Source: a virus. From it: DNA of 64,000 nucleotides. The translations under genes were made by a program, and so were the position numbers. Below, piece by piece: positions 2,675 through 61,808 of the stretch. A model generated the notes under the pieces. It was not told the origin of the DNA. It was given only the letters and a program-made list of their open reading frames with translations, and made no database searches. Numbering within the stretch: position 1 is the stretch's first letter; the number at the start of each line of letters is the position of its first letter. The stretch is from IMG/VR virus record IMGVR_UViG_3300046457_000143, positions 13,935 through 77,934 of that record; one strand, given 5' to 3'.

Positions 2675-3910
2675 ATGCCATTGAACTATAACGCCCCGGC
2701 CGACGGGACAAAGTCGAGCATCGACGGCGCTGGTTCCGACCAGATGCAAACCTTCATGTGGCTCAAGCAGTCACTGGTGACCGCACGCAAGGAGCAGTAT
2801 TTCATGCCCCTGGCGAGCGTCACGAACATGCCGAAGAACTTCGGCAAGAAGCTCAAGGTGTACGAGTACATCCCGCTGCTCGACGACCGCAACATCAACG
2901 ATCAGGGTCTCGACGCTGCAGGCGCCACCTACGCTGGCGGCAACCTGTACGGTTCGTCCAAGGACGTGGGCAAGATCACGGCGAAGCTGCCGCACCTGAC
3001 CGAAAACGGCGGCCGTGTGAACCGTGTCGGTTTCACCCGTATCGAGCGCGAAGGTACGTTCCACAAGTTCGGCTTCTTCTACGAGTGGACGCAGGAGTCG
3101 ATGGACTTCGACTCGGATCCGGAACTGGCCCAGCATCTGGCCACGGAACTGATGAACGGCGCCGTGCAGATGACGGAAGCCCAGCTCCAGATGGACCTGC
3201 TCGCCGCTCCTGGTGTGGTCATGTTTGCGGGCGCCGCAACGTCGAAGGCCACGGTGACGGGTGAAGTCGTGCCGGCTGCCGGTGGCAACCCGGAAATCCC
3301 GGCCTCGGTGGTGTCGTACAAGAACCTGTCGCGTCTGGACCAGATCCTGACCGACAACCGTTCGCCCACCTCGGTGACGATCATCACGGGTTCGCGCCTG
3401 GTCGACACGCAGACGCTCGGCGCACGCCGTGTGATGTATATCGGCTCGGAACTCGTGCCGGCGCTCGAAGCGATGACCGACCTGTTCGGCAATCCGGCGT
3501 TCGTGCCGATCCAGAAATACGGCGATGCCGGCACGCTGATGAATGGCGAGATCGGTGCGATCGGCAAGTGGCGCTTCATCCAGGTGCCGGAAATGCTGCA
3601 CTGGGCAGGCGCTGGTGCAGCGGCGACGGATGCGAATCCGGGCTACCGCACCTCGATGGTTGGCGGCACGGAGCACTACGACGTGTTCCCGATGCTCACC
3701 ATCGGTGACGACTCGTTCACGACCATCGGCTTCCAGACGGACGGCAAGACGGTCAAGTTCAACGTCATCACCAAGATGCCGGGCAAGGACACGGCCGACA
3801 AGACCGATCCGTACGGCGAACAGGGTTTCAGCTCGATGAAGTGGTACTACGGCATTCTCATCAAGCGCCCGGAACGTCTCGGCATCATCTACACGGTCGC
3901 ACCGGAATAA
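2675..3910 (+). CDS. Major capsid protein (N4 gp56 family)
   Basis: 411 aa; [27 protein letters not shown] and [16 protein letters not shown] motifs; strong codon bias. Confidence 0.95.
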
Positions 3911-4002
3911 AGCCGGCGTGAAGCACTGAACCAGGAGGAAGGAGATTGTCCCCACAGTCTCTTTCCCTCTGGCTCCAAGTATCTGGAACCCAAGGAAAAG
4001 CC

Positions 4003-4653
4003 ATGAGTACCCTGAACGAAGACCTGGACGGCGAGAACGCGCAGGACGACCAGCTCACCGAAGCTGATGAACTCAAGTTGCTGAAAGAGCGTGCCACGCT
4101 GATGGGCATCAAGTTCAGCAACAACATCTCGGTCGCCACCCTCAAGGAGAAGATCGAGGAACGCATGTCGGGCACCACGAAGAGCGAAGCTCCGGAGCCG
4201 CAGGTCAAAGCCAATCCGCTGGCAGGTGAAGAGACCCCGGCTGATGGTCAGCCTGTCAAACGCAAGTCGCTGCGCCGGTACCTGCACGACGAGGAGATGA
4301 AGCTCCTTCGCGTGCGTATCACCTGCATGGACCCGAAGAAAGCGGATCTGCACGGTGAAGTGCTGTGTGTCTCCAACGAGTATCTCGGCAACGTGAAGAA
4401 GTTCATTCCCTACGGTGAAGCAACCGAGGGTGGCTTCCACATCGAGAACTGCCTGTACAAGACGCTGCGTGACCGGGAATTCCTGCAGGTCCGCACGCTC
4501 AAGGGCGACAAGTCCAACGGCATGACGCCGCGCATCGAGACGAAATGGGTGCGTGAATTCGCCATCGAAGTCCTGCCGCCGCTCACGCCCCAGGAGCTCG
4601 CGGACCTGAAGGTTGCACAGATCGCTGCCGGTAGCCTCGACGCGGCGAAATAA
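4003..4653 (+). CDS. N4 gp55-like protein
   Basis: LKERATLMGIKFSNNI and LRVRITCMDPKK motifs; AAGGA RBS before ATG 4003; synteny. Confidence 0.75.
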   Translation: MSTLNEDLDGENAQDDQLTEADELKLLKERATLMGIKFSNNISVATLKEKIEERMSGTTKSEAPEPQVKANPLAGEETPADGQPVKRKSLRRYLHDEEMKLLRVRITCMDPKKADLHGEVLCVSNEYLGNVKKFIPYGEATEGGFHIENCLYKTLRDREFLQVRTLKGDKSNGMTPRIETKWVREFAIEVLPPLTPQELADLKVAQIAAGSLDAAK

Positions 4654-4671
4654 AGCTCACGCCCCAACGGG

Positions 4672-4700
4672 AAGCCCGTCCAGATATGGGCGGGCTTTTT
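4672..4700 (+). terminator. Intrinsic terminator
   Basis: AAGCCCGTCCA-GATA-TGGGCGGGCTT stem followed by a T-run. Confidence 0.8.
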
Positions 4701-4723
4701 GTTTCTGAACCAGGAAAAACAAG

Positions 4724-5605
4724 ATGGCTACTTACGGTATCGATACCGACGCAAACCTGCTGTACACCCTGCTGCTGTCGGCTGAACACATCACCGTCCC
4801 GACGCTGGATCTCACCGCTCCCGTGTTCAACATTCCGGGTGACAACACCTCGGGTGCCTACCAGCAGATCAACCCGCTCACCAATGCGGACATGACGGCC
4901 GGCGCCATCGACGGTACCGGCACGTTCGACGTGCTGATGCAGGGCATGAAGGCGCAGCTGCGTGAAGAGTTCGAGAAGGGCCGCATTACCGGCGCCGAGT
5001 ACACGAAGGCCTATGTCGCCCTGGTGCAGAGCACGATGCAGTTCGCCGTGCAGTACCTGCTCGGCCGGGATCAGGCCTACTGGCAGTCGGTGCTGGCCCA
5101 GTCGCAGGCAATCACTGCCCGTGTGGGCCTCGAGCAGGCCAAGATTCAGGCGTTCACCGCCCAGGTCGAGGCACGCAATGCCACGGCAGCGCTCGCCCTG
5201 ACCAAGGCCAAGCTCGGCACGGAAGACGCACAGTTCGGCCAGCTCAAGTACCAGATCGACAACCTGCTGCCGGCCCAGCTCACGCAGGTGCAGGCCCAGA
5301 CCCAGGTGACGAACAAGCAGGTGGCGCTCGTGGGTGAGCAGACCGAAGTGCAGCGTGCGCAGACGCTCGATGTGCGTACCGACGGCCAGACGGTGGCGGG
5401 TGCGCTCGGCAAGCAGAAGCAGCTCTACACCCAGCAGATCACGAGCTACCAGCGTGATGCGGAAGTGAAGGCGGCCAAGATCTTCAGCGATGCGTGGATC
5501 ACGATGAAGACGATCGACGAAGGCATCACTGCACCGGCAGGCTTCTCCAACAGTTCGGTGGATACCGTGCTCACCGCGCTCAAGACCAACAACGGACTGG
5601 GCTGA
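4724..5605 (+). CDS. N4 gp54-like virion structural protein
   Basis: GTGTFDVLM...RITGAEYTKAY and KAAKIFSDAW motifs; synteny. Confidence 0.8.
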   Translation: MATYGIDTDANLLYTLLLSAEHITVPTLDLTAPVFNIPGDNTSGAYQQINPLTNADMTAGAIDGTGTFDVLMQGMKAQLREEFEKGRITGAEYTKAYVALVQSTMQFAVQYLLGRDQAYWQSVLAQSQAITARVGLEQAKIQAFTAQVEARNATAALALTKAKLGTEDAQFGQLKYQIDNLLPAQLTQVQAQTQVTNKQVALVGEQTEVQRAQTLDVRTDGQTVAGALGKQKQLYTQQITSYQRDAEVKAAKIFSDAWITMKTIDEGITAPAGFSNSSVDTVLTALKTNNGLG

Positions 5606-48122: not shown

Positions 48123-48496
48123 AGGTCACTCACGTCCTTGGCGAGCAGCTTTTCCTTCGTCAGCATATCCAGAGGACTGTCCCCGCCGTTGTAGTAGATG
48201 CAGTTGTAGGGCTGGATCGTGGTGAGATCCAGATCGAAGCCGCTGGCCGCTGCCAGCTCGATGAACTGTTTAAGACCTTGCGGAGCCAGGGAGCCGAGAT
48301 GCAGCCCGTAGATGTTCTCGCGCTCACTCAGCGACTTGTTCGAGTTGTAGTCGACATAGAGCAGCGTGCCGTCATAGGTGACGGACAGTTCGCTCTTTTC
48401 GTTCCATAGGTTCTCGTTCGCTTCCTCGCTTTCTTCCTCGCTCAGAGGCTTCAGCAGGACGGCGACGAAGCCGTACTGACGCACTGTGCTGCTCAT
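48119..48496 (-). CDS. Hypothetical protein
   Basis: 125-aa ORF, ATGA-coupled. Confidence 0.65.
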   Translation of the reverse strand: MSSTVRQYGFVAVLLKPLSEEESEEANENLWNEKSELSVTYDGTLLYVDYNSNKSLSERENIYGLHLGSLAPQGLKQFIELAAASGFDLDLTTIQPYNCIYYNGGDSPLDMLTKEKLLAKDVSDL

Positions 48497-50611: not shown

Positions 50612-51877
50612 TCAGCTCAGTGCGTACTCGGTGTCCGGGATTTCCTTCCACATCTCGGCATCGAGCGGCATGACCTTCAGGTCGTTACGCTCCAGGATCT
50701 GACGCAGCAGGAACTGCAGCATCTTCGAGCGGGCCAGCAGCATCAACTGGTTGTTGTACTGCCAGCGCAGGTCATTGCCGTAGTTCGGCAGGCAGCGGAA
50801 GCAGTCGTGGATGGCCATGATCGCAAACGGCTTGGTGGGCAGCGAGAGCAGCAGCTCACGCAGCACCGCTTCGTCGATCAGGTCGATGTTGTCCACGCGC
50901 AGGTGATCCAGGATGCGGGCCGACAGGTAGCCCGACTCCAGGTACAGGTGCCAGAGCTCGAGCACCAGCTTGTCGTCAGCGTCGCTGCCGATCTCACCCT
51001 TGCCTTCCAGTGCGTCCCAGACGCGACTGATTGTCGCAGGGTCGTAGCTGCAGCGGCGCACCATCTCCCGGACGATCATCCCGTCGATCGAGTGGATGGT
51101 GTTGGCGCCGAGGGACCGGCCGCTCTCCTTGCACATGTTGACCTTGCGCTCGCAGTCGTAGGGCACGTCCATGAACTGGACGGTCTCGACTTGCGTCGCC
51201 ATGACCTTGACGTGCACATGGAAGTTGTCCGGTAGCACCCAGCTATTGACCAGCGCATCGGGATTCCACATGCCGAGGAAGGCCTTGTTGAGTTCCCATG
51301 CGGCCGGCGCCACCTCTTCCATGACTTCGTGGAAGACGTGCAGCTGGTGGCCCTCACCGAATACCTTCTTGGGCACAGCTTCGGACCCGTAGAGCGCCGT
51401 CATGATGGCGTCCTTGCAGTCGCTGCGGTTGATCTTCACCTGCGGTGCCTTCTTGTCGCCGGCCACATCTGCCAGCGTCTTCACTTCCGGGCCGCCGTTG
51501 GTGAGGCGCTCGCACATGATGTCGTAGACACCCGTATAGGCATCGGCCCGCTTGAGCACACCGTTGAGCCAGCTCGGGATGACGTTGCACAGCTCCGCGG
51601 CCTTGCGGTCGCCGGTGACGGCCGCCAGGATCTGCAGACCTGAGCTGGTCGCATCGAGCGAGATCGGGTAGCCCGACGCCTCGTTGCCGAGCATGGCCTC
51701 GTAGGCGCACACACCGGCGAAGTACAGTGCCGGCGTCTCTGCCGTGGCCAGCATTTCGTGCAGGCGGTTCTTGTGGGTCTCGAACCAGTCGAGCCGTTCT
51801 TCCCACGTCTTCTTGTCCAGGCCGTAGTTCGAGGCGATGTCGATAGCCAGATACTGTGCGCCGGTAAATTTCTGCAT
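50612..51877 (-). CDS. RNA polymerase II subunit 2 (N4 gp16, RNAP2)
   Basis: T7-like motifs LDATSSGLQ (A), RSDCKDAIMTALYGS (B), ANTIHSIDG, IHDCF (C). Confidence 0.95.
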   Translation of the reverse strand: MQKFTGAQYLAIDIASNYGLDKKTWEERLDWFETHKNRLHEMLATAETPALYFAGVCAYEAMLGNEASGYPISLDATSSGLQILAAVTGDRKAAELCNVIPSWLNGVLKRADAYTGVYDIMCERLTNGGPEVKTLADVAGDKKAPQVKINRSDCKDAIMTALYGSEAVPKKVFGEGHQLHVFHEVMEEVAPAAWELNKAFLGMWNPDALVNSWVLPDNFHVHVKVMATQVETVQFMDVPYDCERKVNMCKESGRSLGANTIHSIDGMIVREMVRRCSYDPATISRVWDALEGKGEIGSDADDKLVLELWHLYLESGYLSARILDHLRVDNIDLIDEAVLRELLLSLPTKPFAIMAIHDCFRCLPNYGNDLRWQYNNQLMLLARSKMLQFLLRQILERNDLKVMPLDAEMWKEIPDTEYALS

Positions 51878-51947: not shown

Positions 51948-52034
51948 GGTGGACGGAGGTGGGAGTTGCACCCACATACCTGATGAGCATCCGAAGATGC
52001 CCCCCTGCCTCTGCTGTTTGAGCTATCCCCGTCC
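51948..52034 (-). ncRNA. tRNA-like RNA lacking a canonical anticodon loop
   Basis: 8-bp acceptor GGACGGGG/CTCCGTCC plus ACC, TAGCTCA D-arm, T-arm GTGGG-TGCAACT-CCCAC; middle arm is GGGCATC-TTCG-GATGCTC. Confidence 0.65.
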
Positions 52035-52039
52035 GTTAA

Positions 52040-52306
52040 CTATTTCCGATACCGGGCCAGCATCTCCCGGATCTGCTGCATGTTCAGTGTGTCGACACTG
52101 CCCACATTCACCGGCGGGAATGGCCGGGCTGCATCAATCTTCTGCAGGCGCTTGATGATGGGCTGGATCTTCCGCTGGTAGTCCTGATGCAGCTCGTTGA
52201 GGATCCACCTGAGCTCTGCTTCCTCGGACTCGAACCGGGGCAGATCGGGGATGAATCCACCCTCCTCTTCCTGGCTCAAAATCCTGCCCCTCCCTTGGGC
52301 ATGCAC
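52040..52306 (-). CDS. Hypothetical protein
   Basis: Open frame between the neighbouring gene and the tRNA-like RNA; start uncertain. Confidence 0.5.
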   Translation of the reverse strand: MHAQGRGRILSQEEEGGFIPDLPRFESEEAELRWILNELHQDYQRKIQPIIKRLQKIDAARPFPPVNVGSVDTLNMQQIREMLARYRK

Positions 52307-52461
52307 TTGGTCACGGCGTCACCACCCGTGGCTACAGCAGCCTGACGTGTAGCGCCAGCCAGTGCGGTGCAGGCAGCCTGCGAGTCAGTCTCCTGGAACT
52401 GGACGGCGGTGCCGCCGCTCAGGTGGGTGGCAACGACCAGTACCCATGCTGCTGTGCTCAT
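52276..52461 (-). CDS. Small exported protein with two Cys
   Basis: Hydrophobic N-terminus AAWVLVVA; GAGG RBS; ATGA-coupled. Confidence 0.55.
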   Translation of the reverse strand: MSTAAWVLVVATHLSGGTAVQFQETDSQAACTALAGATRQAAVATGGDAVTKCMPKGGAGF

Positions 52462-52721
52462 TGTGTGTTCCTCATCTGGTTGATCATGTCTTCGAGTTGA
52501 TGGATTTTCTGCTGCATGGCGTCAAACCGCTGGTTGACGCTTGCGTCCTGCTGGGCACGGTCGCCTGCGTAGTGCAGCACGAGTCCCATGCCGCCTTCGA
52601 GCGAGCTGACCTGCCCGCCCAGGCGCACGTACTGCTCACGTACCTCGGCACGGAAGGAGCGCTGCTCCTCCTGTATGCGGGTGAGCATTTCCTTGATGAA
52701 CGTCATGTCCGGATCAGCCAT
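52458..52721 (-). CDS. Small coiled-coil protein
   Basis: 87 aa with heptad pattern; GGAG RBS overlapped by a DnaA box. Confidence 0.6.
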   Translation of the reverse strand: MADPDMTFIKEMLTRIQEEQRSFRAEVREQYVRLGGQVSSLEGGMGLVLHYAGDRAQQDASVNQRFDAMQQKIHQLEDMINQMRNTQ

Positions 52722-52730
52722 TGTGGATAA
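52722..52730 (-). promoter_or_regulatory. DnaA box
   Basis: Perfect TTATCCACA adjacent to the iteron cluster. Confidence 0.75.
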
Positions 52731-52736
52731 CTCCCT

Positions 52737-52898
52737 GGATGCCCATCACGGGTGATGGTTAATTTAGGTAGATGTCCATCATGGGTGAGGGACATTTCAC
52801 GTTTACGGGACCGGATTGTCCCTCATGGGTGATGGGTAATCTGCTAGATAGCCATCACTGGTGAGGGGCATCTCCGAGATAACCATCATGGGTGATGG
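52737..52898. repeat. Five iteron-like palindromic repeats (putative plasmid origin)
   Basis: CCMTCAY(G/T)GGTGAKGG at 52743, 52776, 52820, 52852, 52883, each preceded by RGAT; spacing 33/44/32/31 bp. Confidence 0.85.
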
Positions 52899-52930
52899 CC
52901 ATTTTTTCCCTCTATATAAGGTTTAGATGT

Positions 52931-53584
52931 TTACAGATCTTCTTCAGACTGGGTGATCGGCAAGTCGATGTTCCTGAGCTTGAGGATGCCTCTTATTTGA
53001 GCAATAGCTTCCTGCGACACCGTGCCCTGCCCAGGTGCAGGGGCAATGACCACGTTGTTCTGCACATTGTTGTCGCCCACCTGCACGTTCACGTTGTACA
53101 TGTTGACGATCACAGTCGCTGGGAGGGGCTGTCCGGCCTTCACACGGGCACGGGCCTCCTCCAGCTGTGCCCCGGTCTCCCGAGGCCTGTAATCACCGAA
53201 CTGGAGCTCTCCTACGGCGTCCTGTGACCTGCGATCCCGTAGCCATACCTTTTCTTTGAAGGTGTATTCCGTCATACGTTTGTCAGCATCCCGGCTGGTG
53301 GGCCGGCCACGCTCGACGAGTCCGAGCTCCACCAGGTGCCTGAGCGCCCTTTCGACCGTCGGCACGCTGATGTTCAGGCGGCTGGCGATCTCCGGCACCT
53401 TGGCCAGTGCCTTGCCGTCGTCGAGGCTCGTGTAGGTCTTGAGCATGACGTAAACGGCAATACCATTGACGCCCATCTTGTCCAGCGGCGCTCCGCGCAG
53501 CACATGGACCCAGAGCAGGTTCACATCCAGCTCATCCCAGAGCTGGCCCTGTGAGACAGTTGGACCTGGTAGTTGACGGTTCAT
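52931..53584 (-). CDS. Winged-HTH protein, probable plasmid replication initiator
   Basis: AVYVMLK...VPEIASRLNISVPTVERALRHLVELGLVER (HTH_36-like); last gene of the par operon, adjacent to iterons and DnaA box. Confidence 0.7.
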   Translation of the reverse strand: MNRQLPGPTVSQGQLWDELDVNLLWVHVLRGAPLDKMGVNGIAVYVMLKTYTSLDDGKALAKVPEIASRLNISVPTVERALRHLVELGLVERGRPTSRDADKRMTEYTFKEKVWLRDRRSQDAVGELQFGDYRPRETGAQLEEARARVKAGQPLPATVIVNMYNVNVQVGDNNVQNNVVIAPAPGQGTVSQEAIAQIRGILKLRNIDLPITQSEEDL

Positions 53585-53910
53585 CAGTACCCTTCCTTCT
53601 CCGCCTGGGCGATCAGCCGGTCGGCTTCCTTTTCAAGGGTAGTGTTAACGAAGTCCTTGATGGTGTCGATCTTGTCCCAGCCCTTCAGGGTCTCGATCTT
53701 CTTGGCCAGCCGCTTGGTGATCTCGTAGTTCGCCTTGTGCGGTTCTTCCATGCCCGGTGCCAGCCAGGTGCGCTTCTTTCCTTGGTGGCTTGCTTCCAAG
53801 GCTACTTCCTTCCTTGGTTCCAAGGCTACCGGGGCTTCATGGCTGGGGCCGGCAGGCTTGGCCGACCCGGCGCGTGCGAGATTCAGACTGGAGAAGTGCT
53901 GCTTAGACAT
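53584..53910 (-). CDS. ParG-like ribbon-helix-helix partition adaptor
   Basis: 108 aa; disordered N-arm, C-terminal strand-helix-helix KANYEI-TKRLAKKIETLK-TIKDFVNTTLEKE; overlaps the parA stop. Confidence 0.7.
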   Translation of the reverse strand: MSKQHFSSLNLARAGSAKPAGPSHEAPVALEPRKEVALEASHQGKKRTWLAPGMEEPHKANYEITKRLAKKIETLKGWDKIDTIKDFVNTTLEKEADRLIAQAEKEGY

Positions 53911-54541
53911 GGGCGGGCCTCCGCTCGATACGGTCCACGATGAACTGCGCCATCTTCTGCACGTTGATGGACGGGGTGCCTTTGTAGAACTCGGTGATCC
54001 CCTGCCCGGCAGCCAGTGCCTGCCAGTAGCGGTTGCTCTTCGGGATGTGGCCGGGGATGACCGGCCCGACTTCCGCGAGCTTGTCCCGTGCCTGCTTGGC
54101 GACAGCCTGCCCGTTGGTCTCGTTGAGCAGGAAGATGAACTTCTTGTTCTCCTGGTCGCACAGATCCACCGTGGGCATGACGGCTTTCAGGTCGCCTACG
54201 GCGTGCTTGCAGGGGATGATCACCAGGTCTGCGAGCTTGATGGCTTCGAGGTTGATCGGGGCCACCTGCGGCGGCGTGTCGATCACGCACCATTTGAAGC
54301 CGGCCTTGACCGCCTTGGCGTGTTCCTTCGTGACCGTCGTGCTCTCGTCGACGTTGATGAATGCGGGGGATTCGGAGAACTGGCTGCGCGTGTTCCACCA
54401 GCCGGCATGGGTGCCCTGACGGTCCAGGTCCATGGTCACGACTGGACCGAGCCCCATTTCTTCCAGAGCGACACACAGGTGAGCTGCGTGCAGGCTCTTG
54501 CCTACTCCGCCTTTGAGACAGGAGAAGACGACAGTCTTCAT
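53903..54541 (-). CDS. parA: ParA family partition ATPase (short, type Ib)
   Basis: Deviant Walker A KGGVGKS, A' DLDRQG, Walker B IDTPP, ADLVIIP; 212 aa, no N-terminal HTH. Confidence 0.92.
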   Translation of the reverse strand: MKTVVFSCLKGGVGKSLHAAHLCVALEEMGLGPVVTMDLDRQGTHAGWWNTRSQFSESPAFINVDESTTVTKEHAKAVKAGFKWCVIDTPPQVAPINLEAIKLADLVIIPCKHAVGDLKAVMPTVDLCDQENKKFIFLLNETNGQAVAKQARDKLAEVGPVIPGHIPKSNRYWQALAAGQGITEFYKGTPSINVQKMAQFIVDRIERRPAHV

Positions 54542-54548
54542 GGAAACT

Positions 54549-54640
54549 CCAAGTTAGGTTGGTTTCTTGGTTAACTCTAACCTTCCTTCCTTGGTTTGGA
54601 TACTTGTTAACTTGGTTCCTTGGTTACTTGTGTTTGGTAG
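54549..54640 (-). repeat. Degenerate 8-bp AACCAAGN array upstream of parA (putative centromere/operator)
   Basis: - strand reads ACACAAGT AACCAAGG AACCAAGT TAACAAGT...ACCAAGG AAGGAAGG...AACCAAGA AACCAACC. Confidence 0.7.
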
Positions 54641-54645
54641 AGTAC

Positions 54646-54675
54646 AAAGGAGACCAGGCTGTATGCCCAGTCTCC
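54646..54675 (-). terminator. Hairpin/terminator upstream of the par-rep unit
   Basis: GGAGACTGGGC-ATACA-GCCTGGTCTCC-TTT. Confidence 0.6.
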
Positions 54676-54849
54676 TTATGCACTGCGTGAGTTCTTTCTG
54701 ACTTCGTCTATCCAGTCTCGGGATGTAGCAGGGTTGAACAGGCGCATCAGGCGGCGATGAGCTGCCGCCATCTGCTCGGTGCGTACAGGGTCTTTCGGTG
54801 TGGGGATGGTGGGATGAGGATCAGGCTGCTTTGCTTTTTTCGCAGGCAT
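54676..54849 (-). CDS. Hypothetical protein (57 aa)
   Basis: Read by hand: MPAKKAKQPDPHPTIPTPKDPVRTEQMAAAHRRLMRLF... Confidence 0.5.
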   Translation of the reverse strand: MPAKKAKQPDPHPTIPTPKDPVRTEQMAAAHRRLMRLFNPATSRDWIDEVRKNSRSA

Positions 54850-55057
54850 TCCTTGTTACCTTGGTTCCTTCATTCCTTCGTGCCCGTTCGCAGAGGCTAT
54901 GTGCCACGTTGTCGATGACGGTTATGCTCTCGTCCGGCATCTGCGTGAGGACGAATTGCCGTGCCGTCTGGTGATCGACCGGGTTCCGGCTGTTCGCCTC
55001 GACCCAGATCAGGTAGGCATCCAGCAAGGCCCAGCTCACTTCGCTGCATTCGTTCAT
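54821..55057 (-). CDS. Hypothetical protein (78 aa)
   Basis: ATG after AAGGAAGGAAG; starts MNECSEVSWALL. Confidence 0.5.
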   Translation of the reverse strand: MNECSEVSWALLDAYLIWVEANSRNPVDHQTARQFVLTQMPDESITVIDNVAHSLCERARRNEGTKVTRNACEKSKAA

Positions 55058-55119
55058 TGGTTGCTTCCTTCCTTGATTCCTTGGTTGCTTGGAAACTTCG
55101 TTCAAAGGATCCCAGCGTC

Positions 55120-55929
55120 TCATTGCGTCACCTCGCCATCTGCGAACTCGATGACGGCCTTGTTCCACGGTCCACCCTGCGGATTTACGTGGTGTCCCTG
55201 GCTGTAGGTGCGGCCGCGCTTGTCGTACCGGTGGGTGAGGTAGAACTCGTTCCCTTCCTTGAGAAGTACAGCGATGACAATGTGAGCAGTCTCATCGTAT
55301 TTCTTGAAAGCTCGCTTGCGCTTGTCGAACTCCTCTCGGGTTTCTCCTTCCTTTGCTCGATCAAGGTTCCTCCACTGGTTCTTGATCATCTTCGAGGTAT
55401 TGAAGTTGAGCCGGTACTTCACCTTGTTCATGCGGTTCAGGTGATCCAGGCAGACATCGTCCTCGTGATGGTTGTCCTTCAGGATGACGCTGGAGTTGGT
55501 ATCCAGGTAGGCACCCTGTGCGTTGTGCTTCAGCTCCAGCGGCGGCACGATCATGGGCAGCGGATACTGGAACTGGTCAATCTCCGCCTGCACCTGCTCG
55601 CTGAGCTCGAACTTGACGATGAACTGGCGCCATTTCGGAGACCAGTCCACCAGATCGATCTCGGCACACTTGAGCAGCAGATCGGCCACTTCCTGGGCCT
55701 TGTCACAGTGGTGGCGCAGGCAGCCGACCAGCGTCGACACATCCGCCCGCTTGTGCAGGGCCATCTGCACCAGCACATCGAGGGCGAACGCCTCGGGCAC
55801 GCCGTGCTTCTTCGCGTGTTCCACGAAGACCGGATCCACGGAGAACTCATGGCGCATGCGGCTCATCAACTGGTTTTTGCTGAACAGACGCTCCAGCTCG
55901 AGCTGGTGTTCCTTCTTTGCTTGGTTCAT
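55120..55929 (-). CDS. RNA polymerase II subunit 1 (N4 gp15, RNAP1)
   Basis: FQYPLPMIVPP and FYLTHRYDKRGRTYSQGHHVNPQG (T7-like DxRGRxY). Confidence 0.95.
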   Translation of the reverse strand: MNQAKKEHQLELERLFSKNQLMSRMRHEFSVDPVFVEHAKKHGVPEAFALDVLVQMALHKRADVSTLVGCLRHHCDKAQEVADLLLKCAEIDLVDWSPKWRQFIVKFELSEQVQAEIDQFQYPLPMIVPPLELKHNAQGAYLDTNSSVILKDNHHEDDVCLDHLNRMNKVKYRLNFNTSKMIKNQWRNLDRAKEGETREEFDKRKRAFKKYDETAHIVIAVLLKEGNEFYLTHRYDKRGRTYSQGHHVNPQGGPWNKAVIEFADGEVTQ

Positions 55930-55956
55930 GGTTTCCTTGGTTCCTTGATTGCTTGG

Positions 55957-56112
55957 TTAATGGAGAGTGCGGGTCTCGTACTCCTGGTTCTCGACCAGCT
56001 CACGCGGCAGCTCGTGCTGGATGAAATGCACCATAGCTGCCTCAGTTTCAAACTGGACGATGATCCCTTCGCATTCGAGCTGATAGCGCGGCACCAGGTC
56101 ATCGTCAGACAT
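55957..56112 (-). CDS. Hypothetical protein (51 aa)
   Basis: Read by hand: MSDDDLVPRYQLECEG...; GAGG RBS. Confidence 0.5.
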   Translation of the reverse strand: MSDDDLVPRYQLECEGIIVQFETEAAMVHFIQHELPRELVENQEYETRTLH

Positions 56113-56296
56113 GACCGAGTTCCTCTTCGATGATGGTCTTCTTCACCAGACGCACTTCCGGGATCACACCTTTGGCTTTCTCCCGACGCTCTTTGGCCCA
56201 CTTGCGTGCAGCCTCAGCGCTGCTGAAGCTCATGATCCGGTGACCATTGGCTGATTCGAGGATGAAATCCTTTTTGATGGTGCCAAGTGTGTTCAT
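56105..56296 (-). CDS. Hypothetical protein
   Basis: 63-aa ATGA-coupled ORF. Confidence 0.6.
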   Translation of the reverse strand: MNTLGTIKKDFILESANGHRIMSFSSAEAARKWAKERREKAKGVIPEVRLVKKTIIEEELGHV

Positions 56297-57508: not shown

Positions 57509-57811
57509 TCAGGTTGGAACGCACATCTGGTAGACATCCGTCTCGCTTTCGGGGATGACCTTGTAGATGGTGTTCATCGTCTCGAACTCGTTTTGCTCGA
57601 GATCGATGCGTTGGAGAAATGACGTGCGGACCTCTTCGCCGGTTTTGAACACCCGGTGCTGATCCTCATGCACACGGGCTTCGGACTTGTCCACCACCAT
57701 CACGGCCCGCAGCACAAACTTACCTGCGTATTCCTGGTTGCCAATCCAGATGTCCTCTGCGCGGACCAGCTGCGCCTTGCACACGAAGGCAACCTTCTTT
57801 CCTTGGTTCAT
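57509..57811 (-). CDS. Hypothetical early protein
   Basis: AAGGA RBS; VRTSFL..I......FETMNTIYKV motif; frame extends to 57919. Confidence 0.6.
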   Translation of the reverse strand: MNQGKKVAFVCKAQLVRAEDIWIGNQEYAGKFVLRAVMVVDKSEARVHEDQHRVFKTGEEVRTSFLQRIDLEQNEFETMNTIYKVIPESETDVYQMCVPT

Positions 57812-57995
57812 AGAATCCTTCTTTCCTTGGTAGCGGGAACGCACAAAAACGCGAGATCGAGGTTTTCGCGGCAGCGAAAACCTCGGGCGAGCTGTGGGCA
57901 GATAGTCTTTAGAGGCCATCTATCCACTTTGTGGAAATAAGTTGACTTTGGTCTTTAGGTCAGCGGACCCGGAGTTGAACTCTGTGCCTATCCTT

Positions 57996-60946: not shown

Positions 60947-61019
60947 AGACTTTAGACTGCGTTTAGTCCATGAACGGACGATACCGTAAACGAACCAAGG
61001 AAACAAGGAACCAAGGAAA

Positions 61020-61808
61020 ATGGAAACCACAGAAGAACAGCTGGCCGCCGCTGCCAAGGCGCCACGAGTCAGCAAGGCTGAAGTCGAGCGCGCTATCCGG
61101 GAGGGCAAGGTGACCTACACCGTCCTGCCGAATGGCCGCACGACTGTCTGCCAGATCGAGCTGTTCAACGAACGCTTCTCGGTCGAGGGCAGCTCGGCCT
61201 GCGTGTCGAAGGAAAACTTCAACCAGCAGTACGGCGAGGAGGCTTCGCTCAAGGAAGCGACCAACGAGGTGTGGGGTGTGCTCGGCACCGTGCTCGCCTG
61301 GAAGCTGAGCCTGATCGATGCAGCCGGCCCGGCAAGCGGGGCGATCATTTCCCTCCTTGGCTCCCGGCCGCTGACGTATGTCGGCACCAAGGTCGTGCGC
61401 GCCGTGCCGATGAGCCTGGGCACCTACAACGAACTGCGCGGCTGGACGATCCCGGAGAACGAGGATCCGGAGACGCCGGGTTATCTCGTCGAGTACACGG
61501 ACGGCGGCAAGCCGAACGTCGAAGGCTTCGACGGCTACGTGTCCTGGTCACCCCAGGATGTGTTCGAACGCGCTTACACCGTGGGCCATGAGCCGAAGCC
61601 CACCACCTTCATCGACCGCCTGCGCGCGGAGATTGACCACGAGCAGGGCAAGTTCGAAAAGCTGCTCGCGTTCCTCACGACCGACACGTTCCGGGATCTG
61701 CCGGCAGCAGACCAGCGTGACCTGGTCGTCCAGAAGTCGTGCATGGAAGAGCTGGTGTGGCTGCTCCGGAAGCGACTGCGCCGGGCTGAGGCCAAGGCCG
61801 GCAAGTAA
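61020..61808 (+). CDS. Three-domain protein: N4 gp49/Sf6 gp66-like domain, YxSWSP domain, crAss001_48-like helical hairpin
   Basis: TTVCQIEL..F.VEG.SACVSKENF; YVGTK...GYLVEY...YVSWSPQDVFERAY; FIDRLRAE...LLAFL...Q...M...L.KR. Confidence 0.75.
   Translation: METTEEQLAAAAKAPRVSKAEVERAIREGKVTYTVLPNGRTTVCQIELFNERFSVEGSSACVSKENFNQQYGEEASLKEATNEVWGVLGTVLAWKLSLIDAAGPASGAIISLLGSRPLTYVGTKVVRAVPMSLGTYNELRGWTIPENEDPETPGYLVEYTDGGKPNVEGFDGYVSWSPQDVFERAYTVGHEPKPTTFIDRLRAEIDHEQGKFEKLLAFLTTDTFRDLPAADQRDLVVQKSCMEELVWLLRKRLRRAEAKAGK

What the first reader, a model, noticed from the sequence alone, without database searches (positions are those of the whole stretch)
52458..54675. Complete plasmid replicon (parA-parG-rep-ori) between the RNAP II subunit genes: candidate N4-like phage-plasmid
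Seen: a coupled operon of a short deviant-Walker ParA, a 108-aa RHH-like protein and a winged-HTH protein, followed by five iterons and a perfect DnaA box. The same genome keeps an intact lytic replication set (Pol A, primase, helicase, SSB), and no integrase appears in the window. Known: type Ib ParA plus RHH adaptor, and Rep plus iterons plus DnaA box, define low-copy plasmids and P1-type prophages; coliphage N4 is lytic. Inference: this phage can persist as an episomal prophage using a second, host-dependent replicon. I cannot tell from here whether this has already been described for Schitoviridae.
Basis: partly seen in the sequence, partly recalled or inferred. Interest (0 to 1): 0.92.

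Follow-up and report, generated by a model that had tools for sequence, protein, structure and literature searches.

The report
Plasmid maintenance cassette in N4-like phage
A complete N4-type phage, from a group usually treated as strictly lytic, carries an intact plasmid-style replication origin and partition operon between its two RNA polymerase II genes, so it can probably persist in cells as a low-copy plasmid, although that was not shown directly.

Summary
On the minus strand, ParA (212 aa, KGGVGKS), a 108-aa protein and a 217-aa winged-helix protein overlap by 8 and 1 nt. After them come an AT-rich patch, five 16-bp palindromic repeats and the only perfect DnaA box of the 77.9-kb genome.

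The decisive evidence is comparative. In 11 loci the winged-helix gene is followed by 3-7 locus-specific palindromic repeats, mostly about 32 bp apart, and then by perfect DnaA boxes. These loci are the window, a 104-kb Polaromonas plasmid with no other annotated Rep, six non-N4 viral contigs and three sister N4-like genomes with the cassette in the same slot. This marks a host-DnaA-dependent iteron origin.

A homologous ParA-small-wHTH triad sits in an Acinetobacter Schitoviridae phage. That phage is 99% identical, over the 3.6 kb compared, to a circular "plasmid" of a clinical isolate.

The complete genome has no integrase, S24 repressor or HTH_3 repressor. The RHH fold of the small protein, the centromere and actual plasmid carriage remain unproven.

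This scan has reported the same kind of cassette before on sister genomes. I found no paper describing N4-like phage-plasmids.

The parts
53903..54541 (-). parA: small Walker-type partition ATPase (212 aa, KGGVGKS, no N-terminal HTH)
   Evidence: It is 55-57% identical to the ParA at the same slot in sister N4-like loci L021, L022 and L054.
53584..53910 (-). 108-aa protein, candidate centromere-binding adaptor. The N-terminal ~60 residues are disordered; the C-terminal part has a beta-like stretch plus two helices (RHH-like, unconfirmed).
   Evidence: A small gene sits at this position in every copy of the cassette and shares a C-terminal pattern. The monomer model has helices 66-76 and 82-106 (pLDDT 63). 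There are only weak RHH leads. The predicted ParA contact got weak support: 0.45 against a best control of 0.02.
52931..53584 (-). rep: 217-aa single winged-helix protein, candidate replication initiator of the HTH_36/DnaD_N-like kind
   Evidence: It is always followed by co-varying iterons and DnaA boxes.
52900..52935 (.). AT-rich patch (28% G+C) between the rep stop codon and the first iteron; candidate unwinding element
52743..52898 (.). Five 16-bp palindromic iterons (CCATCAyGGGTGAkGG type), starting at 52743, 52776, 52820, 52852 and 52883
   Evidence: Equivalent arrays with other sequences follow the homologous gene in 10 other loci.
52722..52730 (-). Perfect DnaA box TTATCCACA, abutting the start codon of the next ORF
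   Evidence: It is the only perfect box in the 77.9-kb genome. Perfect boxes lie at the same relative place in L001-L007, L021, L022 and L054.
54559..54640 (.). Array of ~8-bp-period AACCAAGG-like words upstream of parA; possible operator or centromere, uncertain
   Evidence: The same word is common in 5' leaders of this phage and of Axy11, which lacks the cassette.
54647..54677 (.). 13-bp-stem hairpin between the upstream 57-aa ORF and the parA leader
   Evidence: I24; function not tested
52458..52721 (-). 87-aa coiled-coil ORF directly after the origin. Small ORFs of similar size and character (70-82 aa, predicted from translation only) follow the origin in L021 and L054.
55120..55929 (-). 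N4-type RNA polymerase II small subunit (gp15-like), upstream flank of the slot
   Evidence: phrog_2166, E 2e-103
50612..51877 (-). N4-type RNA polymerase II large subunit (gp16-like), downstream flank of the slot
   Evidence: phrog_2051, E 5e-152; Pfam RNA_pol

Best explanation
The block is a working plasmid-maintenance cassette carried by an N4-like (Schitoviridae) phage. It lets the phage genome persist as a low-copy extrachromosomal replicon, either as a phage-plasmid or as a stabilised carrier state.

Proposed mechanism, with shown and inferred steps marked:
1. Inferred: after entry, the linear genome circularises through its terminal repeats.
2. Inferred, no promoter identified: host RNA polymerase transcribes the coupled parA-small-rep operon.
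3. Architecture shown, binding inferred: dimers of the single-winged-helix Rep bind the five palindromic iterons. These are spaced about three helical turns apart, so they lie on one face of the DNA.
4. Box shown and conserved, role inferred: host DnaA binds the adjacent perfect box. Together they open the AT-rich patch and load the host replisome for theta replication, independently of the phage's own DNA polymerase, primase and helicase.
5. ParA type shown; adaptor fold, contact and centromere inferred: the small Walker ParA and the 108-aa adaptor, which binds short repeats near the operon, segregate the copies.

The rep-iteron unit behaves as an exchangeable specificity determinant, as plasmid incompatibility units do.
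For: 1. Conserved origin grammar. In the window, plasmid pA29BJ2 (L001), viral contigs L002-L007 and sister N4-like loci L021, L022 and L054, the wHTH gene is followed by 3-7 palindromic 16-19-bp repeats. In most loci these are about 32 bp apart. Then come 1-2 perfect TTATCCACA boxes, and every perfect box in each 8-15-kb locus lies there. A perfect box in a given 250 bp is expected about 0.002 times.

2. Repeat sequence tracks Rep divergence. L002 (61% identical) has CCCTCATGGGTGAGGG. L001 (31%) has CCCTTATGGGTAAGGG. L003-L007 (42-43%) have TGCCGCACCnGTGCGGTA. L021, L022 and L054 (25-30%) have three further types.

3. A real plasmid uses it. The 104-kb circular pA29BJ2 from a Polaromonas isolate has the same ParA-small-wHTH-iterons-DnaA-box block, and no other annotated Rep or Par protein.

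4. The cassette is inherited, not a one-off.
- 3 of 71 IMG/VR N4-like loci, the three nearest by RNAP1, carry it in the same slot.
- Logan contigs of 74,624, 74,921 and 20,071 bp hold both a 79-83% identical Rep and an N4 RNAP1.
- The ORFs are intact, and G+C matches the phage.

5. Acinetobacter parallel. A homologous triad (hhalign 99.8%, E 1.6e-28 for the wHTH) lies in Schitoviridae phage vB_IME_Ab2712. Over the 3.6 kb compared, that phage is 99.2% identical to circular plasmid pRBH2-3 of A. baumannii RBH2.

6. HTH_36-type proteins are recognised plasmid initiators (PMC3832669, PMC4224046).

7. The complete genome has no integrase.

8. Predicted ParA-108-aa contact: weak support. Score 0.45 against a best control of 0.02. 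The mark was reached by 58 of 80 solved complexes and 2 of 110 mismatches, but a score of 0.60 or under by only 7 of those 80 and by both mismatches that passed. The three runs agree in at least 88% of contacts, and the partner's pLDDT is at least 70.
Against: - No experiment and no isolate. The source is a rhizosphere metagenome, so neither copy number nor carriage can be read.
- No repressor, anti-repressor or other lysis-lysogeny switch was found.
- No sigma-70-like promoter was found upstream of parA by a strict consensus scan.
- Rep has a single winged helix, and its database hits are generic regulator families at or below cut-off. Initiator identity therefore rests on context.
- The 108-aa protein has no ParG or RHH family match.
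- The 8-bp words upstream of parA are also the common leader word of this phage lineage.
- In the Acinetobacter element the triad lies elsewhere in the genome, and no clear iteron array or adjacent DnaA box was seen.
- A phage contig in an isolate assembly can also reflect a carrier state without dedicated maintenance.
Confidence: 0.6

Rival explanations
1. The cassette serves the lytic cycle only. It gives the phage a second, host-DnaA-dependent origin for early theta replication, and a ParA-based way to position replicating DNA. There is no stable plasmid state.
For: The genome keeps the full N4-type lytic set: vRNAP, DNA polymerase, primase, exonuclease, rIIA/B and major head protein. No repressor was found. 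The cassette sits among early genes, between the RNAP II subunits.
Against: The same cassette is the only candidate replicon of a non-phage 104-kb plasmid. Partition ATPases with adaptors matter for inheritance over cell divisions, not within one burst. 68 of 71 related N4-like loci manage without it. Diversified iteron specificities make most sense for co-resident replicons.
Confidence: 0.15
2. The wHTH protein is a transcription regulator and the palindromes are its operators, for example controlling the downstream ORFs and the RNAP II large subunit. ParA and the small protein are a stand-alone segregation or regulatory pair. There is no autonomous origin.
For: Palindromic sites bound by dimeric winged-helix proteins are typical operators. 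All family, PDB and fold matches are to regulators, TubR/AspA-type centromere binders or generic wHTH domains. The repeats lie just upstream of the next ORF, and the DnaA box abuts its start codon.
Against: Perfect DnaA boxes next to the repeats in 11 of 11 loci are unexplained by an operator model. This holds even though the downstream genes differ: an O-acetyltransferase in L006, and unrelated small ORFs elsewhere. The plasmid pA29BJ2 would be left without any replicon. HTH_36-type proteins are accepted plasmid initiators. Lambda O also binds palindromic iterons (established knowledge).
Confidence: 0.1
3. The cassette is a selfish or decaying passenger picked up from a plasmid. It has no present benefit for the phage.
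For: The cassette is mobile: it occurs in plasmids, in unrelated phage contigs and at a different position in the Acinetobacter N4-like phage. Only a small minority of N4-like genomes carry it.
Against: All three ORFs are intact and translationally coupled. The five iterons and the DnaA box are intact. G+C matches the phage. At least seven N4-like genomes or contigs from different samples keep it in the same slot, with 55-57% ParA identity in the three IMG/VR sister loci. That implies long retention under packaging-size constraint.
Confidence: 0.1

Closest known systems
A. baumannii RBH2 plasmid pRBH2-3 (NZ_CP110465.1, 75,126 bp, circular) and Acinetobacter phage vB_IME_Ab2712 (OK149216.1, Schitoviridae)
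   Same: It is an N4-like genome carrying a ParA (207 aa), small (102 aa), wHTH (248 aa) triad. The wHTH is homologous to the window's family (hhalign 99.8%). The element is recorded both as a phage and as a circular extrachromosomal record in an isolate.
   Different: ParA is only 31% identical. The triad is not between the RNAP II genes. No clear iteron array or adjacent DnaA box was seen. The host is a gammaproteobacterium.
Maintenance block of Polaromonas sp. ANT_J29B plasmid pA29BJ2 (NZ_MN657148.1, positions 3514-5350)
   Same: Same gene order: ParA, small protein, wHTH. An AT-rich stretch follows, then three palindromic repeats 32-33 bp apart, then perfect DnaA boxes. It is the only candidate replicon of that plasmid.
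   Different: Rep is 31% identical and the iteron sequence differs. The carrier is a 104-kb catabolic/resistance plasmid without phage genes. The PLSDB gene table is incomplete.
Bacteriophage P1 plasmid prophage (RepA/oriR iterons with DnaA boxes; ParA-ParB-parS)
   Same: It works alike: a phage kept as a low-copy plasmid by an iteron origin that needs host DnaA, plus a ParA partition system, without integration (established knowledge).
   Different: P1 RepA is a two-winged-helix Rep_3-type protein with non-palindromic iterons. P1 ParA is type Ia, with a large HTH ParB. P1 is a myovirus with a C1 repressor. Here Rep has a single winged helix, the iterons are palindromic, ParA is small, and no repressor was found.
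Type Ib partition systems, e.g. ParF-ParG-parH of TP228
   Same: A ParA of about 210 aa with a deviant Walker A and no HTH. A small downstream protein with a disordered N-terminal half and a short helical C-terminal DNA-binding-like part. Short ~8-bp-period repeats upstream of the operon.
   Different: There is no sequence match to ParG (no Pfam hit). The RHH fold is not confirmed. The repeat word is also a common leader word of the phage, so the centromere is unassigned.
HTH_36-type plasmid initiators (pKL1, pAES1, pMOS2 group; PMC3832669) and lambda O/ori-lambda
   Same: A small initiator whose DNA-binding part is a single HTH/winged helix. It binds repeats with dyad symmetry next to an AT-rich segment.
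   Different: The window's HTH_36 score (24.3 bits) is just under the Pfam cut-off (25). Those plasmids have 2-3 repeats upstream of rep. Lambda's origin lies inside the O gene and uses no DnaA box.

Membership tests
Schitoviridae (N4-like phages) | Giant virion RNA polymerase, two-subunit RNAP II, and N4-type replication and structural genes in two opposed blocks | tested here: met
   vRNAP of 3834 aa (phrog_2206, E 0). RNAP II subunits phrog_2166 and phrog_2051. DNA polymerase, primase, exonuclease, rIIA/B and major head protein are present. The nearest database relatives are Achromobacter, Pseudomonas and Burkholderia Schitoviridae.
Type Ib ParA partition system | Small ParA (~200-220 aa) with deviant Walker A KGGxxK[ST] and no N-terminal HTH | tested here: met
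   212 aa with the motif KGGVGKS at residues 10-16. phrog_164 E 9e-26; Pfam AAA_31, MipZ and CbiA.
Type Ib ParA partition system | Small ribbon-helix-helix centromere-binding protein encoded directly downstream | tested here: inconclusive
   The position is right, and the C-terminal pattern is conserved across loci. The model shows two helices but no strand, at low confidence. There is no ParG or RHH hit for the window's protein; RHH_3 has E 0.012 for one relative only. The Atlas gives only leads.
Type Ib ParA partition system | Centromere of short repeats next to the operon | tested here: inconclusive
   There is an 8-bp-period array at 54559-54640, and locus-specific short repeats lie upstream of parA in L001, L003 and L006. 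But the window's word recurs in many leaders, and also in Axy11, which lacks the cassette.
Iteron-type theta replicon (Rep + iterons + DnaA box + AT-rich element) | Array of 3 or more phased repeats next to the initiator gene, with a host DnaA box and an AT-rich segment | tested here: met
   Five repeats with gaps of 33, 44, 32 and 31 bp. The genome's only perfect DnaA box lies beside them, and so does a 28% G+C patch. The same grammar is found in 10 other loci.
Rep_3 (RepA/RepE/pi) initiator family | Two tandem winged-helix domains; Pfam PF01051 | tested here: not met
   There is no Rep_3 hit in Pfam, NCBIfam or PDB profile searches. The model has one winged helix (residues 30-131), then a helix and a disordered tail.
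HTH_36-type plasmid replication initiators | Pfam PF13730 domain in a ~200-aa protein encoded beside its repeats | tested here: inconclusive
   The window's protein scores 24.3 bits against a cut-off of 25. PF13730 and DnaD_N are on record for family members. Atlas neighbours are 96-100% HTH_36 (lead only).
Phage-plasmid | One replicon with a full phage gene set plus plasmid replication and partition genes | tested here: met
   and the cassette evidence above
Phage-plasmid | Stable extrachromosomal carriage in host cells | not testable with these tools
   The source is a metagenome only. The indirect parallel is pRBH2-3.

The most novel reading that the evidence does not exclude
N4-like phages may achieve latency without any repressor. 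Their early promoters are read only by the RNA polymerase that comes in with the virion. A circularised copy replicated from the host-DnaA-dependent origin and segregated by ParA would therefore be transcriptionally silent by default. The cassette alone would turn a 'strictly lytic' phage into a plasmid prophage. The rep-iteron unit would be swapped among sister phages as an incompatibility determinant.
Probability: 0.15. Interest if true: 0.9.

Novelty: new variant of a known kind. Interest (0 to 1): 0.75.

Why it matters
Schitoviridae are treated as obligately lytic and are widely proposed for phage therapy and biocontrol. The only published hints of lysogeny that I found are integrase-bearing genomes and integrated proviruses (PMC10654107). 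The large census of phage-plasmids lists no N4-like group and few podoviruses (PMC7969092).

A clade of N4-like phages with a host-dependent iteron origin and a partition operon would add a new lifestyle to the family. It would also explain N4-like 'plasmids' in isolate assemblies, and it bears on safety screening of therapeutic phages.

It offers a compact, testable replicon of about 2 kb for Burkholderiaceae. The initiator class is poorly characterised: a single winged helix, palindromic iterons three helical turns apart, and a DnaA box. The family has about 1,100 representative clusters at E up to 0.001.

Tried and rejected
The 74.6-76.1-kb Logan contigs and the NCBI isolate contigs could therefore not be fetched.
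- Single-protein scans of viral contigs and genome contigs for Rep found nothing. The metagenome scan gave one 1-kb contig.
- Fold searches of the Rep model (Foldseek pdb, VIA wide) returned only generic winged-helix regulators. The pSK41 initiator (Z 7.4) and a DnaD-like primosome protein (Z 6.9) were lost among them, so the searches were not discriminating.
- NCBIfam and PDB profile searches were likewise generic.
- The profile of the 108-aa protein found nothing meaningful in the PDB.
- The strict sigma-70 scan found no promoter in 52000-56200, and terminator-like hits did not exceed shuffles.
- No RNA holder was listed for the stretch, and the single DNA holder is probably the source sample.
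- I rejected calling the AACCAAGG array 'parC' with confidence, because the word is a lineage-wide leader word.
- Other N4-like loci with large RNAP1-RNAP2 gaps: a reading of their ORF translations showed what look like HNH-like and other cargo and no ParA- or Rep-like product, but no family search was run on them.
- No NCBI-sourced Rep homologue was listed. Whether the Caballeronia and Paraburkholderia contigs carry this cassette is therefore unknown.
- The paper on RBH2 (Plasmid 128:102707) is not held.
Full report
**What is there.** The window is the last 64 kb of a 77,934-bp IMG/VR virus record with a 127-bp end overlap, rated complete by CheckV. It is an N4-like phage:
- a 3834-aa virion RNA polymerase;
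- both RNAP II subunits;
- family-A DNA polymerase, primase, exonuclease, rIIA/B and major head protein;
- two opposed gene blocks.

The nearest database phages are Achromobacter, Pseudomonas, Delftia and Burkholderia Schitoviridae. They match only the RNAP genes of this region. The source sample is a rhizosphere metagenome.

**The cassette.** Between the RNAP II subunit genes (55120-55929 and 50612-51877) lie three minus-strand genes whose stop and start codons overlap by 8 and 1 nt:
- ParA, 53903-54541, 212 aa, KGGVGKS.
- A 108-aa ORF, 53584-53910, with no family hit.
- A 217-aa winged-helix ORF, 52931-53584.

Directly after the last stop codon come, in order:
- a 36-bp patch of 28% G+C;
- five copies of a 16-bp palindrome, CCATCAyGGGTGAkGG, with gaps of 33, 44, 32 and 31 bp;
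- TTATCCACA, the only perfect DnaA box in the whole genome.

An independent Logan assembly of the source run bridges all junctions at flat depth, so the cassette is not an assembly chimera.

In Achromobacter phage Axy11 the same slot holds two small ORFs in about 0.5 kb. Across 68 N4-like loci the gap ranges from -3 to 3,522 bp, and most gaps are under 1 kb.

**Why I read it as an origin.** Database matches for the winged-helix protein do not decide its role.
- Pfam and NCBIfam hits are generic HTH families at or below cut-off.
- The AlphaFold model shows one winged helix (residues 30-131), a helix, a disordered Asn-rich stretch and a C-terminal helix.
- Fold and PDB searches list regulators, TubR/AspA centromere binders, the pSK41 initiator and DnaD-like proteins without separation.

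Context decides instead. The protein belongs to a family of ~190-220-aa proteins, with 1,104 representative clusters at E up to 0.001. I recovered the gene in these places:
- the 104-kb circular plasmid pA29BJ2 of a Polaromonas isolate (L001);
- six non-N4 viral contigs (L002-L007);
- three sister N4-like genomes (L021, L022, L054).

In every one, the gene is followed within about 50-150 bp by 3-7 palindromic 16-19-bp repeats, in most loci about 32 bp apart. Then come one or two perfect DnaA boxes, and all perfect boxes of each locus lie there.

The repeat sequence changes with Rep divergence. It is near-identical at 61% identity (L002). It has the same architecture with other bases at 31% (L001). 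It is unrelated at 25-30% (L021, L022, L054). This is the behaviour of an initiator and its iterons.

pA29BJ2 has no other annotated Rep or Par protein. With the caveat that the PLSDB gene table is incomplete, this block is therefore its replicon. HTH_36-type proteins are accepted plasmid initiators in the literature (PMC3832669, PMC4224046). Lambda O is a precedent for palindromic iterons bound by a single winged helix (established knowledge).

**Partition part.** ParA meets the type Ib criteria.

The 108-aa protein has a counterpart at the same position in every copy of the cassette. The counterparts share a disordered N-terminal half and a C-terminal pattern consistent with strand-helix-helix. 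The RHH fold is not confirmed.

A predicted ParA-108-aa complex got weak support. The score was 0.45 against a best control of 0.02. The mark was reached by 58 of 80 solved complexes and 2 of 110 mismatches. Scores of 0.60 or under came from only 7 of those 80 and from both mismatches that passed. The runs agreed in at least 88% of contacts, and the partner's pLDDT was at least 70.

Upstream of parA lies an ~8-bp-period array of AACCAAGG-like words, followed by a small palindrome. Other loci have their own short repeats upstream of parA. But the window's word also fills the 5' leaders of other early genes, and it occurs on the coding strand of Axy11, which lacks the cassette. I therefore leave the centromere unassigned.

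**Distribution among N4-like phages.**
- Of 71 IMG/VR loci found with an RNAP1 profile, only the three nearest to the window carry the cassette, in the same slot. Their RNAP1 is 63-67% identical and their contigs are 74.7-78.5 kb.
- Their ParA is 55-57% identical to the window's, but their Rep only 25-30%.
- Logan contigs of 74,624 and 74,921 bp have RNAP1 at 64-65% but Rep at 81-83%.

So the rep-iteron unit is exchanged independently of the backbone, as expected of a specificity or incompatibility determinant.

**Acinetobacter parallel.** A separate acquisition is seen in Acinetobacter. Phage vB_IME_Ab2712 (Schitoviridae, 74.6 kb) carries a homologous ParA-small-wHTH triad elsewhere in its genome. 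Over the 3.6 kb compared, it is 99.2% identical to pRBH2-3, a 75,126-bp circular 'plasmid' in the complete genome of A. baumannii RBH2. This is the closest thing here to direct evidence that N4-like phages with this triad exist as extrachromosomal circles in cultured cells.

**What is missing.**
- No integrase, serine recombinase, S24 repressor or HTH_3 repressor is present.
- No host-type promoter was found for the operon by a strict scan.
- There are no data on carriage for this phage.

The claim 'persists as an episomal prophage' is therefore an inference, and I give it about 0.6. The narrower claim, that this is a functional plasmid-type origin plus partition operon, is stronger, in my judgement about 0.8.

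**Literature and earlier notes.**
- The library searches found no paper on N4-like phage-plasmids.
- Zheng et al. 2023 report integrase-, transposase- and DGR-bearing N4-like genomes and integrated proviruses. The words 'plasmid' and 'partition' do not occur in that paper.
- The phage-plasmid census of Pfeifer et al. 2021 has no N4-like group.
- This scan has already reported the same kind of cassette on sister genomes, and it also reported the pRBH2-3 link. I reached the same points independently before reading those notes.
- Their statement that relatives are closed circles in cultured Burkholderiaceae matches the 76-80-kb NCBI contigs I saw. I could verify neither closure nor the presence of the cassette on those contigs.

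Noticed in passing
window 48369-48384: There is a sixth match to the iteron pattern (CCGTCATAGGTGACGG) inside a coding region, 4.4 kb from the origin. About 0.02 matches are expected by chance in the genome. It could be a remote Rep site or a coincidence.
   Followed up: partly
NCBI proteins P0167, P0171, P0185, P0287: N4-type RNAP1 homologues (86%, 72% and 65% identity for the three in the hit table) lie on 76.5-79.6-kb contigs of isolate assemblies: Caballeronia sp. TF1N1 and LZ034LL, and Paraburkholderia sp. SIMBA_054 and SIMBA_049. These are whole-phage-sized contigs in cultured Burkholderiaceae, and they point to the likely host group. No NCBI-sourced Rep homologue was listed, so whether they carry this cassette is unknown.
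   Followed up: partly
L014 (Roseococcus MAG contig_21, 296,681 bp), L012 ('archaeon' MAG, 69,347-bp contig), L013 (Gemmobacter MAG, 86,904 bp): N4-like RNAP1 genes occur on MAG contigs. The one inside a 297-kb contig could be an integrated N4-like provirus or a chimera. The 'archaeon' bin probably holds a mis-binned phage.
   Followed up: no
window 53779-53838, 54832-54889, 55040-55099, 55904-55965, 57774-57833, 60981-61040: Arrays of the word AACCAAGGAA with 8-, 16- or 24-nt phasing sit in the 5' leaders of several early genes. One lies inside the 108-aa gene, where it encodes EPRKE/HQGK. Sister phages have longer KEPSKE-type repeats there. It may be a translational leader, a promoter element or binding sites for the small protein.
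   Followed up: partly
L002 (62-kb viral contig) and L005/L006/L007 (23-41-kb viral contigs): Non-N4 phage contigs carry the same ParA-small-Rep-iteron-DnaA-box cassette. L002 also has a primase-helicase, a DarB-like protein of more than 2,100 aa and a minor head protein. L006 has a Lar-like protein and an O-acetyltransferase. These are further candidate phage-plasmids.
   Followed up: partly
L021 7850-7922, L022 8170-8242, L054 8234-8306: The three sister phages share a conserved segment just upstream of parA that contains the perfect palindrome ACCGTATACGGT, a likely par operator. The window has a different palindrome there (GGTTAgagtTAACC).
   Followed up: no
L056, L084, L090: In some N4-like genomes the RNAP II large-subunit gene appears to be split by an inserted ORF whose translation looks like a Cys-rich HNH-type endonuclease. 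This was read from translations only; no family search was run.
   Followed up: no
genome ends (G000 1-127 and 77808-77934): The 127-bp end repeat is about the size of an assembler k-mer overlap, so it need not be the true terminal repeat. Axy11 has a 404-bp repeat. The repeat does not tell a circular molecule from a linear one with terminal redundancy.
   Followed up: partly
window 53978-54152 (record 4): The same metagenome holds a second, diverged parA-like contig, so related cassettes co-occur in the sample.
   Followed up: no
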